Shown here: in pieces, positions 3,467-58,102 of the stretch
How positions within the stretch are numbered: position 1 is the first letter of the stretch
How the letters are laid out: every line of letters begins with the position of its first letter
From: a bacterium
GTDB taxonomy: Archaea > Nanobdellota > Nanobdellia > Pacearchaeales > GW2011-AR1
Length of the DNA stretch: 64,000 nucleotides
Assembly: GCA_036787775.1 (NCBI GenBank)
Contig: DAIQOR010000001.1
Location: forward strand, 30,521 to 94,520
Direction: 5' to 3'
The notes under the pieces: generated by a model
Databases searched by the model: none
What the model was told of the DNA's origin: nothing
What the model saw: only the letters and a program-made list of their open reading frames with translations
Program-made: the position numbers and the translations under genes

Positions 3467-3661
3467 ATGAAAAAGAAAGCAAGTGAACTAACAAAAGGTG
3501 ATAAAATAAATTTAGCGAATAAGTCTTTTGTAATAAAAGAGTTCGAACTTTCTGAAATCGGAAAACACGGCAAGCGAAAATGTCGTATTGAAGCAGAATC
3601 CGAACAAGGCGAAAAGATAACAATTATCCGTCCGGAAGACTATCCAGTAGAGACCCTATGA
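3467..3661 (+). CDS. eIF-5A-like mini-protein (N-terminal SH3-like domain only; hypusine-loop-like GKHGK)
   Basis: 64 aa; TKGDKINL...SEIGKHGKRKCRIEAE closely parallels the aIF5A in this window (SKTGKHGHAKCRIEAM); stop TGA overlaps start of downstream GT2 (ATGA). Confidence 0.5.
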   Translation: MKKKASELTKGDKINLANKSFVIKEFELSEIGKHGKRKCRIEAESEQGEKITIIRPEDYPVETL

Positions 3662-4563
3662 TTAATATTATAATCACTTCCTACAACGAACCCAAAGCAA
3701 CCCTTCGGGCGGTAAAAACATTTTTAGACCAAAAAATTAAAGAAGATTTCAAAATAATTGTGGTAGACCCTTTCCAAGAAACAGAAGATTTTCTTAAAAA
3801 AAATATTAAAGATAAACGAGTAAACTTTTTTTTAGATCCGGGAGAGGGAAAAAGTTACGCACTAAATTTGTTATTCCAAGAAAATTTTTCTGAAAATAAA
3901 AACGATTTATTTATTCTAACTGATGGAGATGTTTACGTCTCAGAAAATTCCTTAAATGAAATAATAAAAGCATTCAAGGCTAAAGAAGTCGGATGTGTTG
4001 CAGGAAAACCCACAACTCTAGACTCAAAAAAAACAAAATATGGTTTCTGGTCTCACTTCGCGTTTGAAGGAATCCATCAAGCAAGAAAAAAATTATCCGA
4101 AAATAAAAAATTCTTTGAATGCTCGGGATATTTATTTGCCATAAGAAATTCAGTCCTATTTGACTTTCCTTTGGAATCTTCCGAAGATTCAATAATCCCT
4201 TATTTATTTTGGGAAAAAGGTTACAAAATAAAATATGTTCCAGAAGCAGAAGTTTATGTGAAAAATCCAGACAATTGGAAAGATTGGTTAAATCAAAAAG
4301 TAAGGAACATTAAAGGTCACGAAAATTTAAACAAAATCGCTCCCAACATGCCACGAACTAAATCTCTATTTAACGAAATAAAACATGGATGGAATTTTTT
4401 ATTTTTTTATCCAAAGAACATCCAAGAATTATTCTGGACAATTCAATTATACTTCGCAAGGTTATACCTTTATTTCAAAGCCTTCAAAGAATTAAGATTA
4501 AACAAAAAATATTCCGATGGTTGGAGAGAAACCGAAATAAATTCCACAAAACCTTTAGATTAA
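3658..4563 (+). CDS. Glycosyltransferase family 2 (GT-A)
   Basis: IIITSYNEP N-terminus, DxD-like TDGDVYV, 301 aa. Confidence 0.7.
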   Translation: MINIIITSYNEPKATLRAVKTFLDQKIKEDFKIIVVDPFQETEDFLKKNIKDKRVNFFLDPGEGKSYALNLLFQENFSENKNDLFILTDGDVYVSENSLNEIIKAFKAKEVGCVAGKPTTLDSKKTKYGFWSHFAFEGIHQARKKLSENKKFFECSGYLFAIRNSVLFDFPLESSEDSIIPYLFWEKGYKIKYVPEAEVYVKNPDNWKDWLNQKVRNIKGHENLNKIAPNMPRTKSLFNEIKHGWNFLFFYPKNIQELFWTIQLYFARLYLYFKAFKELRLNKKYSDGWRETEINSTKPLD

Positions 4564-52114: not shown

Positions 52115-52413
52115 TTTATTTTAATCTCCCACATAACGCGCCACGAGCATAGATTTTATCTCGCAACGATGTGGTTCTATCGATTGATTTCTCAAGATGA
52201 GTTGGGTTTATAAAAGTTTGTTTTGGGTACATGGTTAAGTTAAAGGTTGTAAAATCAAAAAATGGAAAGGAATTTAAAGAATAAAAAACAAAATACTAAT
52301 ATGAAAAAGAGGTTGGTTTGTGAGAATAAGGTTTTTTATACAAAAATTAATAAATGCCGAAATATTAATAAATCTATAATTTCGTTGTATTTATACAATG
52401 GAGGAACTTTACT

Positions 52414-52653
52414 ATGAAATTAAGTCAGATAACTTTTAACGAAGAATCAAAACCAGATATTCTTGAACTTTTTGGAAAAACTATTGATGAAGAAGGTTAT
52501 ATTGTTGAAATTGAAAATGTTGAACAAAGAGTATTAACTCCAAAAGGAGAAGAGATACATATTTCTGAATGGGCCGGAGTTATGAAAGGTTCTGAAGCAT
52601 TTGTAAAATCAGATACATTTTCTTTAATGGAAATAGCAAAGAAAATAGAGTGA
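52414..52653 (+). CDS. Hypothetical small protein (79 aa)
   Basis: GGAGGA SD-like 8 nt upstream; stop overlaps GTG of next ORF. Confidence 0.3.
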   Translation: MKLSQITFNEESKPDILELFGKTIDEEGYIVEIENVEQRVLTPKGEEIHISEWAGVMKGSEAFVKSDTFSLMEIAKKIE

Positions 52654-53468
52654 TTATTCTTGACAAATTAAGAACTTTGTTTGAAGGAAAATTTGGAGAC
52701 CTTTTCGCTAATAATACAATAAAACTTTTTGATTTTTCTAAAAATATTAGTAATATATTAGAATTAAAAGATGGGCAAAAATTAAGTTTAGATGTTAGTA
52801 AAGCAACCCCTGAAGAAAAGAAACAAATTAAAAAAGAAATAATTGATGTAATTGTTCAGAATCAAGATGAAACATTCTTTTTAGATAAATCAGAACAAAA
52901 AACTAATCAAATAAAAAGAAACTTGCCAATTAACACCGACGAAGAATTATTAAAGTTTTATAAAGATAAATTAAATCCAGAGATGTTTAAATCATTAGAA
53001 ACATCGATGGTTGTTAGAAATTCTTGGAAAAAAGGAGAAGATATATCTGAATTAAAAAGAGATATTGCTTGGAAATATCCCTCTTTTGGAAATAATCTTT
53101 GTAATTTAGTTACAAGAAATTATTTTGAGGAATATTTTAAAGAATTATATGAGAAGATGTTAGAGCAAGATGATTTTAGCATTATTAATTATCAACAAGA
53201 GGTTGAGAGAATTGTTGAATCATTGCCTTATATGGTTTTTATTAATAGACATAAATCTTACGAAGAATTTAGTGGAGAAGTTAAATTTAAGATTGATAGG
53301 TTAAAAAAATATGGAACCGAGAAACTAAAAATACACGCACTTGGGAAAGATAATGTGGATAAATCATTAAAGATAATTGAGGAATACAAAAATGACGAAA
53401 CAATAACTATTGAAAAAAGAATAAATCACTCAAAAACTATCATCACCGCTATTTTTAGATTTAGGTAA
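52650..53468 (+). CDS. Hypothetical protein (272 aa; GTG start overlapping upstream stop)
   Basis: ORF only. Confidence 0.3.
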   Translation: MIILDKLRTLFEGKFGDLFANNTIKLFDFSKNISNILELKDGQKLSLDVSKATPEEKKQIKKEIIDVIVQNQDETFFLDKSEQKTNQIKRNLPINTDEELLKFYKDKLNPEMFKSLETSMVVRNSWKKGEDISELKRDIAWKYPSFGNNLCNLVTRNYFEEYFKELYEKMLEQDDFSIINYQQEVERIVESLPYMVFINRHKSYEEFSGEVKFKIDRLKKYGTEKLKIHALGKDNVDKSLKIIEEYKNDETITIEKRINHSKTIITAIFRFR

Positions 53469-53659
53469 ATTGATTAACTCCGATAATTTATTTTGGGAAT
53501 TTAATTTATCTTCTACATAGAAATTCCCTTTGTATCTTTTATTCGATTTGCTAACTTTTCTCCTCTAAGAAATCCACACGCGATTTCTGAGCCCCCACAT
53601 TTTTCTTAGTTTTTTAGCAAAGTTTAAAATATCTTAAATCTTAATTGAGGAAGAACAAA

Positions 53660-54280
53660 ATGAATCTAAAACAATTTTATTCAAAAAATAAGGTGATAAT
53701 CCTTATTAGTGCAGGTGTTTTAGGATTTTTTGTTTTGATTTTTCTTTCAATTATTGGAAGCATTTTGATTGTTTCAAATTCTCTTAATTACGAAGACACT
53801 AGCGAGAAATTTCCTGAAGAGATTTTTAAAACTTCTCCCAGCGAGAATAAAATAACCGCGCTCCCAACTTCTTCTCTCCAAAGAATAGAGGAAATTGTTG
53901 GAGATGTTGGGAGGTATGAGGTTATAGTTTTTGATTCAAGTGGAAATTTTGCAACGGAAGATTCAATACCTTATGAGATTATTGTTAATGGGGGATTCAG
54001 CCAATTTAATAATTGTTTTCAAGCAAAAGAAGAGTTATATGAAGTCATGAAAAATTTATATTCAGACGAGATGTTGAAGGGAAAAATTTCAAGAGTTTTA
54101 TTTACAGCCCCAAATTATTTAAGAGCAAGTGCTGGCTATGAAGATGTTAAAGATTTTACTTGGGATTATGGAATTTCAAATTATTGGAAAGTTACTTTAC
54201 AATATAAAAATTATGAAGATGAGTCTGGAACTTTGTCTAAAAGAACTTGGGGAAAGCAAATAGATTCAACCTGCGATTAA
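53660..54280 (+). CDS. Hypothetical membrane-anchored protein (N-terminal TM, about 206 aa)
   Basis: VIILISAGVLGFFVLIFLSIIGSILIV anchor; first ATG 53660 (ORF track TTG 53645), GAGGAAG SD-like upstream. Confidence 0.35.
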   Translation: MNLKQFYSKNKVIILISAGVLGFFVLIFLSIIGSILIVSNSLNYEDTSEKFPEEIFKTSPSENKITALPTSSLQRIEEIVGDVGRYEVIVFDSSGNFATEDSIPYEIIVNGGFSQFNNCFQAKEELYEVMKNLYSDEMLKGKISRVLFTAPNYLRASAGYEDVKDFTWDYGISNYWKVTLQYKNYEDESGTLSKRTWGKQIDSTCD

Positions 54281-54347
54281 TTCTTTTCCAAAAACACAAG
54301 CAATTTCCCACAACAATCCTTAAAAATAATCTTTTGTTCTTTCCATC

Positions 54348-54698
54348 ATGGAATTAATTTGTTTAATCTCTTCAGACACAGAAACATGGCCACAAATCTC
54401 TGGACTCATGACGCATGGAGTGTGGGACAAAGTCGTCCTTGTCGGAGACGAATCAGGAAAACAATTTCAACACGAAAGACCTTTTCAATTCATCCAAGTT
54501 GACACAACTAAAAAAATAAAAGAACTAAGAGAAGAATTCACGCAAAAACTAAAAGGCAAATTTGAAGGGATGGAAGTAGCCTGTTCAATCGCATCAGGCA
54601 CGGGAAAAGAGCACATGGCACTAATCTCGGCAATAATAAATCTCCCAATGGGAATCCGATTCGCCGCACTAACAAAAGAAGGAATTTTAGATTTGTAA
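54348..54698 (+). CDS. Hypothetical protein (116 aa)
   Basis: ORF only. Confidence 0.3.
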   Translation: MELICLISSDTETWPQISGLMTHGVWDKVVLVGDESGKQFQHERPFQFIQVDTTKKIKELREEFTQKLKGKFEGMEVACSIASGTGKEHMALISAIINLPMGIRFAALTKEGILDL

Positions 54699-54699
54699 G

Positions 54700-55014
54700 A
54701 TGGATATAAGTGAAATAGAAAGGAAAATAAAAGAGTTTAAAGCAAAAGGTCTTGAATGGAATGTGGGTTATTCAGAATGGAGAGGTGAATGAGGGAGAAT
54801 TATTTATTATATAGAAGAGCAAGTAAAATTACCTTCTGGAGAATGGATTAGTAAATATAAGATTAGAGAATATTTTGAAAAAAATAAATTAGAATTCGGA
54901 AATACAAAACAAATAGAGTATCTTTTAGCATTAGAATTTTTCGATTTAGTCGAATTTTTTCCTTCCAATTATCCTGCAGGATTAAGTGCGGAATATGTTG
55001 ATTTACTTAGTTAA
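54700..55014 (+). pseudogene. 105-codon reading frame interrupted by a single in-frame TGA at 54790-54792 (pseudogene or recoding candidate)
   Basis: ATG at 54700, 30 codons, TGA, then 74 further sense codons with no ATG and no stop until TAA at 55012; not in ORF track. Confidence 0.4.
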
Positions 55015-55987
55015 TCTTAATCTTCAATCCCTCTTTCCTCTTTCCCAAAACATAAGCTCGACTTCTTTCGTGCGAATCTAAAATTTTCAAACCAGTCTCT
55101 TTAGCCAACTTTTTAACAAACTCCAACATCTCTTTATCTGTGGGCATTTTATCATAACCCAATCTCTCCCGAGCAAACCCAACGGACATAAATCCTTTTA
55201 TTTCAACAAAAAGTGGTTTAGCTTTTCCAATCATCTCAGAATATTCTTTAACATGCTCATCATTCATATTCAAATCTCTAACAAGATTCATCCTAAATAC
55301 CGTTCGACACTTTAAACCAGACATAATTTTCAAACTCTCATTCAACTTCGCCCACGCATCCTTAAACTCGCTTCTATGAAATTCGTTATACAATTTCTCA
55401 TTCGGAGCATTAACAGAAATATACAACTGCGTCGGCAACTGATTCTTCTTCACCAACTCTTTCAACTTCTCAGGATAAAGCCCATTAGTAACCAAAAAAG
55501 AAGTCTTCCCTCTTTTTCTCAGTTCCTCAATTAATCCTCCAATATTTTCATAAAGCGTCGGCTCACCACTCAAACTAATCGCAAACTGCATCGGCTCCTG
55601 TGCCTCCAAATATTTCTTCTGGTTCGCCCGACTCATCTGCTTTTTCTTACTTCGCGAATCAATCTTAAACCCTTTCAACAATTTTCTCTGTGCAAGAATA
55701 CAACCATCAATAATCTCCGACGGAGAATCCAACTTCCCTTTTAACTCACTTCCCAAAGTTAATTCAATCGCCCGCCAACAATGCACACATTTATTCGGAC
55801 ACCACATCACCGACGGCGTCATCTGACAGCAAAGATGCGATTTAATTCCATAAAATTTTTCTTTGTAACACACACCCTCATCCTTCAGCGACCTCTTCGT
55901 CCAACGACAAACCTGCACCGCCGAATGTTTTCCAACAATTTCATAATGTTGTTTTTTCAAAACTTTCTTAACTTTTTCAGGAATCAT
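55007..55987 (-). CDS. taw1: tRNA 4-demethylwyosine synthase Taw1 (TYW1-like radical SAM)
   Basis: CPNKCVHCWR radical-SAM cluster motif characteristic of TYW1/Taw1; second Cys cluster (CRWTK..CYKE..CCQ) upstream; 326 aa. Confidence 0.65.
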   Translation of the reverse strand: MIPEKVKKVLKKQHYEIVGKHSAVQVCRWTKRSLKDEGVCYKEKFYGIKSHLCCQMTPSVMWCPNKCVHCWRAIELTLGSELKGKLDSPSEIIDGCILAQRKLLKGFKIDSRSKKKQMSRANQKKYLEAQEPMQFAISLSGEPTLYENIGGLIEELRKRGKTSFLVTNGLYPEKLKELVKKNQLPTQLYISVNAPNEKLYNEFHRSEFKDAWAKLNESLKIMSGLKCRTVFRMNLVRDLNMNDEHVKEYSEMIGKAKPLFVEIKGFMSVGFARERLGYDKMPTDKEMLEFVKKLAKETGLKILDSHERSRAYVLGKRKEGLKIKIN

Positions 55988-57652: not shown

Positions 57653-58045
57653 TTACAATCTTCGCTTAACAATCTTAGTTCCTTCAACATCCCAATATTC
57701 GCAATTTCCACTTTCTTCAAGAGTATCAAAAACTTCTTGCTCCGGAACTAAAATCTCCAAAGTCTCGAAAGTTTCTAAATCCATAACATTCGCTCTCCCT
57801 TCAGTTTTAGAAAGAACTTGGCCTTTTCTCTTATCAACAATTGGAACTTCCAACCTATCGTGCCCAGGAATAACAAAAACTTTTTTAGAACCACTTATCA
57901 ACGGCATAGCCTCGATTCGGCACTTCGCGTGACCATGTTTTCCAGTCTTAGAAACATCCATACTTTTCACAACACAAGGTGTTCCATCAACAATAATATT
58001 TGTGCCCACCTTTGCATCTGTCGCGCTGATAATTTTTAAAACCAT
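57653..58045 (-). CDS. eif5a: Translation initiation factor 5A (aIF-5A)
   Basis: Hypusine loop SKTGKHGHAKCRIE; start set to internal ATG (MVLKIISATDAK). Confidence 0.85.
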   Translation of the reverse strand: MVLKIISATDAKVGTNIIVDGTPCVVKSMDVSKTGKHGHAKCRIEAMPLISGSKKVFVIPGHDRLEVPIVDKRKGQVLSKTEGRANVMDLETFETLEILVPEQEVFDTLEESGNCEYWDVEGTKIVKRRL

Positions 58046-58102
58046 ATATTCTTTAAAAAAGATATGTTTATAAAAGTTTTTGATTACAATTTTGGATAAC
58101 AA

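What the first reader, a model, noticed from the sequence alone, without database searches (positions are those of the whole stretch)
54700..55014. A 105-codon coding-like frame containing one in-frame TGA
ATG at 54700 opens 30 codons, MDISEIERKIKEFKAKGLEWNVGYSEWRGE. A TGA follows, then 74 more sense codons in the same frame, GRIIYYIEEQVKLPSGEW...AGLSAEYVDLLS. That second stretch has no ATG and no stop until TAA at 55012. In this AT-rich genome a 74-codon stop-free stretch arises by chance with probability of roughly 0.002. So this is probably one gene interrupted by a stop. The cause could be a recent nonsense mutation (pseudogene), a sequencing error, selenocysteine, or programmed read-through. 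TGA clearly acts as a stop elsewhere, for example in the ATGA overlaps at 3658 and 52414, so this is not genome-wide recoding. Both halves contain an EW motif.
Basis: seen in the sequence. Interest (0 to 1): 0.6.

Follow-up and report, generated by a model that had tools for sequence, protein, structure and literature searches.

The report
Small archaeal gene broken by TGA
A small, fast-evolving gene of unknown function in a groundwater Pacearchaeota-type archaeon carries a real premature TGA stop at codon 31, and it is most likely an ordinary, recently inactivated dispensable gene, not selenocysteine, recoding or an assembly error.

Summary
ATG 54700, in-frame TGA 54790-54792 and TAA 55012-55014 bracket 30 + 73 sense codons. 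Both halves belong to one gene. A Pacearchaeota orthologue (P0003, 118 aa, 47% identity, same gene neighbourhood) and three distant homologues read through the position as single ORFs. An AlphaFold model places the stop in a beta-hairpin loop of one compact domain.

The TGA is not an assembly error: 16 full-length contigs plus one partial contig, from many groundwater samples and several assemblers, carry the identical gene with TGA. The database proteins that show 'W' there are gene-caller artefacts (table 4 on short contigs).

TGA is a normal stop in this genome (19 of 72 long ORFs). I found no SECIS-like element, no stable downstream structure and no tRNA-Sec in the window, and homologues have Asp or a gap there, not Cys.

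A co-occurring sister haplotype lacks the whole ORF (318 nt absent). In six more distant relatives the same slot is empty, holds unrelated genes, or (L026) holds only a marginal homologue. No intact allele was seen.

Best reading: a young nonsense allele of a dispensable accessory gene (about 0.68). The downstream part shows no decay, so leaky or functional UGA read-through cannot be excluded (about 0.15). Ordinary; low interest.

The parts
54700..54789 (+). N-terminal 30 codons of the interrupted gene (helix 3-15 and strand 19-26 of the model; holds the family motif K-G-L-E-W)
   Evidence: homology to P0003 and P0005-7; model; called as a 30-aa protein (P0004) in public catalogues
54790..54792 (+). 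In-frame TGA (codon 31), followed by G. It lies in the variable linker, a hairpin loop, of the family
   Evidence: identical in 16 full-length contigs and one partial contig; aligns with Asp or a gap in homologues; loop 27-33 in the model
54793..55014 (+). 73 further sense codons plus TAA. This is the best-conserved part of the family (LPSGE...FEKNKLEFGN.KQIEYLLAL.FF). It has no in-frame ATG/GTG/TTG and no second lesion
54699..55016 (.). 318-nt segment (G + whole ORF + TC) that is absent from a co-occurring sister haplotype and replaced there by TTTT
   Evidence: L031-L034
54348..54698 (+). Conserved 116-aa hypothetical gene immediately upstream (stop TAA, 1 nt, then ATG 54700). It is the likely operon partner and is present in all relatives
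55007..55987 (-). Convergent TYW1 (4-demethylwyosine synthase). Its 3' end overlaps the interrupted gene by 8 nt. I used it as the anchor to find related loci

Best explanation
This is a genuine small protein-coding gene. It belongs to a rare, fast-evolving, uncharacterised family that sits downstream of a conserved 116-aa gene in Pacearchaeota-type DPANN archaea. In this groundwater population it carries a premature TGA at codon 31. Termination at that TGA would yield a 30-residue fragment, one helix plus one strand of a single-domain protein. The remaining 73 codons have no start codon of their own, so the allele is most likely null or strongly hypomorphic: a young pseudogene of a dispensable accessory gene. 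Shown: the stop is real, TGA is a normal stop here, the ancestral gene was uninterrupted, and the gene is dispensable in close and more distant relatives. Inferred: that no useful amount of full-length protein is made, and that the mutation is recent. The likeliest single step is TGG to TGA, a G-to-A change that fits the local E-W-R-G-E-*-G-R repeat, but the ancestral codon cannot be determined.
For: (1) Both halves are one gene. P0003 (118 aa, 47% identity) is an uninterrupted ORF in the same slot between the 116-aa gene and TYW1. P0005-7 (122-145 aa) also span the position.
(2) The model (pLDDT 79.7) puts codon 31 in the loop of a beta-hairpin whose two strands come from the two halves, so neither half is a domain on its own.
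(3) TGA is a standard stop: 19 of 72 long ORFs end in it. These include rpl1, which at 209 aa matches its orthologues in five relatives (211 aa in L026).
(4) The stop is real. 16 full-length contigs and 1 partial contig from many samples and assemblers are 100% identical including the TGA. The 'W' in P0001 and P0002 is a table-4 gene call ('translates_to_query: no').
(5) The gene is dispensable. A sister haplotype found in some of the same assemblies (L031-L034; 96% identity in the 116-aa protein) lacks exactly the ORF. Among six relatives with 79-83% identical TYW1, the slot is empty (L023, L030), holds unrelated genes (L024, L028, L029), or holds a barely recognisable homologue (L026).
(6) No intact allele was found in either protein collection.
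(7) No recoding signals were found. The downstream fold has z = 0.35, Rfam gave nothing, the archaeal SECIS descriptor had 0 matches, there is no tRNA-Sec in the window, and there is no in-frame ATG/GTG/TTG after the stop.
Against: The 73 codons after the TGA show no decay at all. There is no second stop or frameshift, and no deviation at family-conserved columns (0 of 7 identical columns, 0 of 21 similar-group columns), the fewest of any member. The TGA allele is the only allele of the gene seen. It occurs on at least two, possibly three, recombinant backgrounds (window type, L010-12, and perhaps L005). Both facts fit a very recent mutation, but they fit equally well a gene still under selection because some full-length protein is made. 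About 8% of random substitutions in the C-terminal part create a stop, so the lack of a second lesion only bounds neutral divergence to below roughly 14-20%. All contigs probably come from one aquifer population, and some may be re-assemblies of the same reads, so 'fixed' means fixed locally.
Confidence: 0.68

Rival explanations
1. Leaky or programmed UGA read-through without selenocysteine. A near-cognate tRNA (for example Trp, Cys or Arg) decodes the TGA in a fraction of ribosomes, so the cell makes both a 30-aa peptide and the full 104-aa protein, and the gene stays under selection.
For: The downstream 73 codons are fully intact and the most consensus-like of the family. The TGA allele is the only one seen and sits on several recombinant backgrounds. 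From general knowledge, UGA is the leakiest stop codon.
Against: No orthologue or homologue shares the stop. There is no stable structure after the stop (z = 0.35) and no Rfam element. The +4 base is G, shared with 3 of 19 genuine TGA stops in the window, so the context is not distinctive. Co-occurring strains do without the gene altogether. In archaea, demonstrated stop read-through is limited to Sec and Pyl (review PMC8211752).
Confidence: 0.15
2. The gene is split. The 30-aa N-terminal peptide and a C-terminal protein are made separately, with the second made by termination-reinitiation at a non-canonical start (ATT 54799 or 54802, or ATA 54811). The two pieces reassemble across the hairpin.
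For: A purine-rich, Shine-Dalgarno-like run GGAGAGGTGA (54781-54790) and GAGGGAG (54791-54797) lie 11-16 nt before the ATT codons. About one third of genes in the window have such 4-mers at -15 to -10. The break falls in a loop between two paired strands.
Against: There is no ATG, GTG or TTG in frame. From general knowledge, ATT and ATA starts are very rare and weak in prokaryotes. The purine run also simply encodes W-R-G-E-*-G-R. No homologue is split.
Confidence: 0.06
3. The 30-residue N-terminal peptide is now the functional product (gene truncation with a retained function), and the rest is dead sequence.
For: The N-terminal part holds a family-conserved motif (K-G-L/F/Y). It keeps its start codon directly after the 116-aa gene, so it should still be translated.
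Against: The best-conserved part of the family is downstream of the stop (37/73 against 11/29 identical to P0003). In the model the N-terminal strand needs its partner strand 34-43. The sister haplotype lacks the peptide too.
Confidence: 0.05
4. The TGA encodes selenocysteine.
For: Only the in-frame TGA itself.
Against: Homologues have Asp or a gap at the position, not Cys, and it lies in a variable loop. There is no match to the archaeal SECIS descriptor within 600 nt downstream, no Rfam hit and no tRNA-Sec in the 64 kb. Sec use in archaea is known only from Methanococcales, Methanopyrus and Asgard lineages (PMC11227280).
Confidence: 0.01
5. The TGA is a sequencing or assembly error in this window.
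For: None. Database proteins with W at the position look like support at first sight.
Against: The DNA behind those proteins has TGA. 16 full-length contigs and 1 partial contig from different samples and assemblers (MEGAHIT, SPAdes, JGI, Logan) agree base for base.
Confidence: 0.02

Closest known systems
Nonsense-mutation pseudogenes of accessory genes in prokaryotic populations
   Same: There is a single premature standard stop in an otherwise intact ORF. Orthologues are uninterrupted. The gene is absent from sister strains and relatives. It lies in a variable gene slot.
   Different: No second lesion or relaxed-constraint signal is visible yet, and no intact allele was found for comparison, so its age and its complete loss of function are inferred.
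Archaeal selenoprotein genes (Methanococcales, Methanopyrus, Asgard)
   Same: An in-frame UGA inside a conserved ORF in a genome where UGA otherwise terminates.
   Different: There is no Cys in homologues at the site, no SECIS-like element and no tRNA-Sec in the window. The lineage is not known to use Sec, and the family is not a redox enzyme family.
Gene-caller table-4 (TGA = Trp) mis-calls on short metagenomic contigs
   Same: P0001 and P0002 in public catalogues show W exactly where the DNA has TGA.
   Different: This is an annotation artefact and not a property of the organism. The organism uses TGA as a stop.
Programmed stop-codon read-through (for example the Q-beta A1 protein or viral gag-pol UGA/UAG read-through)
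   Same: An in-frame leaky-type stop (UGA) is followed by a long conserved open frame.
   Different: There is no conserved stop in relatives, no stimulatory context or structure, and no precedent for Sec/Pyl-independent programmed read-through in archaea (PMC8211752).

Membership tests
Nonsense pseudogene of a real gene | Homologues elsewhere are uninterrupted ORFs that cover both sides of the stop | tested here: met
   P0003 and P0005-7; same gene neighbourhood in L006
Nonsense pseudogene of a real gene | The interrupting codon is an ordinary terminator in this genome | tested here: met
   19 of 72 long ORFs end in TGA; rpl1 ends in TGA at the orthologous length of 209 aa
Nonsense pseudogene of a real gene | The gene is dispensable in close relatives | tested here: met
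   The ORF is absent from sister haplotype L031-L034. The slot is empty or holds unrelated genes in L023, L024, L028, L029 and L030, and holds only a marginal homologue in L026
Nonsense pseudogene of a real gene | Relaxed constraint or further lesions downstream of the stop | tested here: not met
   No second stop or frameshift and 0 deviations at conserved columns. This is compatible only with a recent event
Selenoprotein gene (archaeal) | The UGA aligns with Cys or Sec in homologues | tested here: not met
   Asp or a gap in a variable loop
Selenoprotein gene (archaeal) | A SECIS element downstream or in the 3' UTR | tested here: not met
   0 matches to the GAA_A descriptor in 54793-55400; no Rfam hit; fold z = 0.35
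Selenoprotein gene (archaeal) | tRNA-Sec, EFSec, PSTK, SepSecS and SelD in the genome | not testable with these tools
   Only 64 kb is available, with no tRNA-Sec in it. The literature restricts archaeal Sec use to other lineages
TGA-reassigned genetic code (table 4 or 25) | TGA occurs inside conserved genes genome-wide and is not used as a terminator | tested here: not met
   TGA ends 19 of 72 ORFs, and no other interrupted gene was found in the window
Programmed stop-codon read-through | The stop codon is conserved at the same position in diverged orthologues | tested here: not met
   No homologue has it. All TGA-bearing contigs are 100% identical copies of one allele
Programmed stop-codon read-through | A stimulatory 3' context or RNA structure | tested here: not met
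   z = 0.35. The +4 base G is also found at genuine stops
Programmed stop-codon read-through | Purifying selection on the codons after the stop since the stop arose | tested here: inconclusive
   There is no sequence variation within the allele. Conserved columns are intact, but this does not separate a recent mutation from ongoing selection
Split gene (two translated ORFs) | The downstream part has its own start codon and ribosome-binding site | tested here: not met
   No in-frame ATG/GTG/TTG. There are only SD-like purine runs followed by ATT and ATA codons

The most novel reading that the evidence does not exclude
The TGA is kept on purpose. A Sec- and Pyl-independent UGA read-through in a DPANN archaeon would produce a small amount of the full 104-aa protein alongside a 30-aa peptide, which would explain why the downstream 73 codons are flawless and why no sense allele exists in the population.
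Probability: 0.12. Interest if true: 0.6.

Novelty: new member of a known kind. Interest (0 to 1): 0.15.

Why it matters
It matters mostly as a clean negative. An in-frame TGA that looks like possible recoding turns out to be an ordinary nonsense allele of a dispensable accessory gene. There are two practical lessons. First, public protein catalogues contain 'full-length' versions of this protein with Trp at the stop only because a gene caller switched to table 4 on short contigs, so a protein-level search alone would wrongly suggest a sense-codon allele or an assembly error. Second, the locus shows gene loss caught in action in a reduced DPANN genome: one haplotype carries a nonsense allele and the sister haplotype carries a clean deletion. 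If read-through were shown, it would be the first Sec/Pyl-independent example in archaea.

Tried and rejected
- Pfam, NCBIfam, PHROGs and PADLOC scans of the protein and its neighbours gave no family for the target.
- A word-index search with P0003 found only itself.
- The exhaustive HMM search found only six proteins.
- I looked for a closer orthologue through TYW1 neighbours with 79-94% identity. The 94% variant (L010-12) is a recombinant whose gene region is identical to the window, so it gives no independent information. The 79-83% relatives have other content, or at most a marginal homologue, in the slot.
- dN/dS could not be computed. The only good orthologue is saturated (47% amino-acid identity), and all TGA-bearing copies are identical.
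- The out-of-frame ATG at 54789 (an ATGA overlap with the stop) opens only 20 codons unrelated to the family, so I rejected it as a restart (read).
The single-sequence model was too weak to search with (pLDDT 59).

Full report
**Observation.** ATG at 54700 opens 30 sense codons, followed by TGA at 54790-54792. The same frame then stays open until TAA at 55012-55014.

- The second stretch has 73 sense codons, not 74.
- From the window's composition (32% GC; stop probability 0.071 per random codon), a stop-free run of that length has a chance of about 0.004.
- The second stretch has no in-frame ATG, GTG or TTG.

**Genome background.** The window is a compact, AT-rich archaeal segment carrying rpl1, rpl10, aIF5A, TYW1, an M50 peptidase, FtsZ and a ribosomal-protein operon. 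Its closest named relatives are Candidatus Pacearchaeota MAGs.

- TGA terminates 19 of 72 long ORFs.
- One of these is rpl1. At 209 aa it matches the length of its orthologues in five related loci (211 aa in a sixth, L026).
- A six-frame scan for other pairs of open stretches joined by a single stop found only shadow ORFs opposite ribosomal-protein genes.
- So TGA is an ordinary stop here, and this is the only interrupted gene in the 64 kb.

**One gene or two?** It is one gene.

- The word-index search returned P0003, a 118-aa hypothetical protein of a Pacearchaeota MAG. It is 47% identical over residues 3-102 and is an uninterrupted ORF.
- P0003 lies in the same place as the window gene: immediately after a conserved 116-aa gene and convergent with TYW1.
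- An exhaustive HMM search of 1.84 billion representatives added only three distant homologues (P0005-7, 122-145 aa, 29-36% identity). All are single ORFs across the position.
- The TGA falls in a linker that varies in length and sequence between the K-G-L/F/Y motif and the Y-I...L-P-S-G-E motif. P0003 has Asp there.
- An AlphaFold2 model (pLDDT 79.7) gives helix 3-15, strand 19-26, loop 27-33, strand 34-43, strand 49-51 and helices 52-61 and 69-84. The stop therefore sits in the loop of a hairpin whose strands come from the two halves of a single domain.
- No family, solved structure or fold match gives a function.

**Is the TGA real?** Two database proteins (P0001, 104 aa; P0002) are identical to the window protein but have W at position 31. 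At face value this would suggest a TGG allele or an assembly error in the window. The DNA says otherwise.

- All five contigs behind those proteins have TGA. The look-up itself reports that the genes do not translate to the query under table 11.
- The W therefore comes from a gene caller choosing a TGA = Trp table on short contigs.
- Using the neighbouring TYW1 as an anchor, I retrieved further contigs of the same population. In total, 16 contigs carry the full 315 nt at 100% identity, and one partial contig carries the first 169 nt, all with TGA.
- They come from many groundwater samples and from MEGAHIT, SPAdes, JGI and Logan assemblies.
- Caveat: these are probably one aquifer population, and some may be re-assemblies of the same reads.

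**Comparative evidence on dispensability.** The cluster of the 116-aa neighbour contains a 96%-identical variant (P0133). Its contigs (L031-L034) include assemblies that also yielded TGA-bearing contigs (for example ERZ4902915, coverage 34 against 44). These contigs lack the gene.

- Window positions 54699-55016 (318 nt = G + the whole ORF + TC) are replaced by TTTT, so the 116-aa gene abuts TYW1 directly.
- The flanks of this gene-less haplotype differ from the window by 6.7% on the left (34 nucleotide but only 5 amino-acid differences in the 116-aa gene) and by 12% on the right up to 55169. Beyond that they are identical.
- A second mosaic (L010-12) is identical to the window up to 55180 and about 13% divergent beyond.
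- The population therefore recombines and holds two states at this slot: the gene with TGA, or no gene. No intact allele was seen anywhere.
- In six more distant relatives (TYW1 79-83% identical), the slot between the 116-aa gene and TYW1 is empty (L023, L030), holds unrelated ORFs (L024, L028, L029), or holds a barely recognisable 85-aa homologue (L026).
- The gene is thus a fast-turnover accessory gene that close relatives do without.

**Recoding signals.** I found none.

- There is no tRNA-Sec in the window.
- Rfam gave no hit at gathering or permissive thresholds.
- The 100 nt from the stop onward folds no better than shuffles (z = 0.35).
- A descriptor for the archaeal SECIS (helix, GAA, helix, loop, A bulge; taken from PMC11227280) has no match in 54793-55400.
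- Sec use in archaea is reported only for Methanococcales, Methanopyrus and Asgard lineages.
- Demonstrated archaeal stop read-through is limited to Sec and Pyl (PMC8211752).
- The base after the stop is G, as at 3 of 19 genuine TGA stops.

**What keeps the alternatives alive.** The 73 codons after the stop are flawless.

- At columns where the other four family members agree, the window sequence never deviates (0 of 7 identical columns, 0 of 21 similar-group columns). This is the fewest of any member.
- About 8% of random substitutions there would create a stop. The lack of a second lesion therefore only says that less than roughly 14-20% neutral divergence has accumulated.
- That fits a recent mutation. 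It fits equally well a gene that is still selected because some ribosomes read through the UGA.
- A Shine-Dalgarno-like purine run (GGAGAGGTGA, GAGGGAG) precedes in-frame ATT codons at 54799 and 54802. About a third of genes here have such motifs at -15 to -10. A termination-reinitiation split gene is therefore conceivable, but it would need a non-canonical start, and no homologue is split.

| Reading | Probability |
|---|---|
| Young nonsense allele of a dispensable accessory gene, now null or strongly hypomorphic (a sister haplotype has deleted the gene outright) | about 0.68 |
| Leaky or functional UGA read-through | about 0.15 |
| Non-canonical re-initiation (split gene) | about 0.06 |
| A functional 30-aa peptide | about 0.05 |
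| Assembly or sequencing error | about 0.02 |
| Selenocysteine | about 0.01 |

This is an ordinary kind of event and the interest is low.

Noticed in passing
window 52120-55016; L006 7380-8357; L032 183-2120: The stretch between rpl1 and TYW1 is a variable island of hypothetical genes. The window has 79-, 272-, 211- and 116-aa genes plus the interrupted gene. L006 has 90-, 116- and 118-aa genes. L032 has 155- and 99-aa genes on the other strand in place of the 79/272-aa pair. Only the 116-aa protein is kept everywhere.
   Followed up: partly
window 54348-54698 (+): The 116-aa protein is strongly conserved across Pacearchaeota-type relatives (66-96% identity, 58 invariant columns) but has no Pfam, NCBIfam or PDB relative. 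A weak single-sequence model shows an alternating strand/helix (Rossmann-like) pattern, and PADLOC gives only an insignificant CARF hint (E = 0.025).
   Followed up: partly
L001-L005 (public contigs); proteins P0001, P0002: Public protein catalogues hold 'full-length' versions of this protein with Trp at the TGA because the gene caller used a TGA = Trp table on short contigs. JGI record L003 carries both the 30-aa and the 104-aa call for the same start.
   Followed up: yes
window 55170-55180 (inside TYW1): Two different mosaic haplotypes change state at almost the same point. L031-34 differ from the window up to 55169 and are identical afterwards. L010-12 are identical up to 55180 and about 13% divergent afterwards. 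This suggests recombination tracts ending at a shared breakpoint.
   Followed up: partly
L005 3-229 (window 54642-54868): This low-coverage, chimeric 514-nt contig joins the sister-type 3' end of the 116-aa gene (5 differences, all synonymous) to the TGA-bearing gene. It may be a third recombinant background, or it may be an assembly chimera.
   Followed up: partly
window 3470-3661 (+): A 64-codon ORF resembles the N-terminal (KOW) domain of aIF5A, including a G-K-H-G motif (Pfam IF5A-like_N, E = 8e-4, below threshold). It ends in an ATGA overlap with a family-2 glycosyltransferase gene (3658-4563). The regular aIF5A is at 57653-58102.
   Followed up: partly
window 55007-55014: The interrupted gene and the convergent TYW1 overlap by 8 nt at their 3' ends. 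In the gene-less haplotype TYW1 is 2 codons longer (328 aa) and instead overlaps the end of the 116-aa gene by 12 nt.
   Followed up: yes
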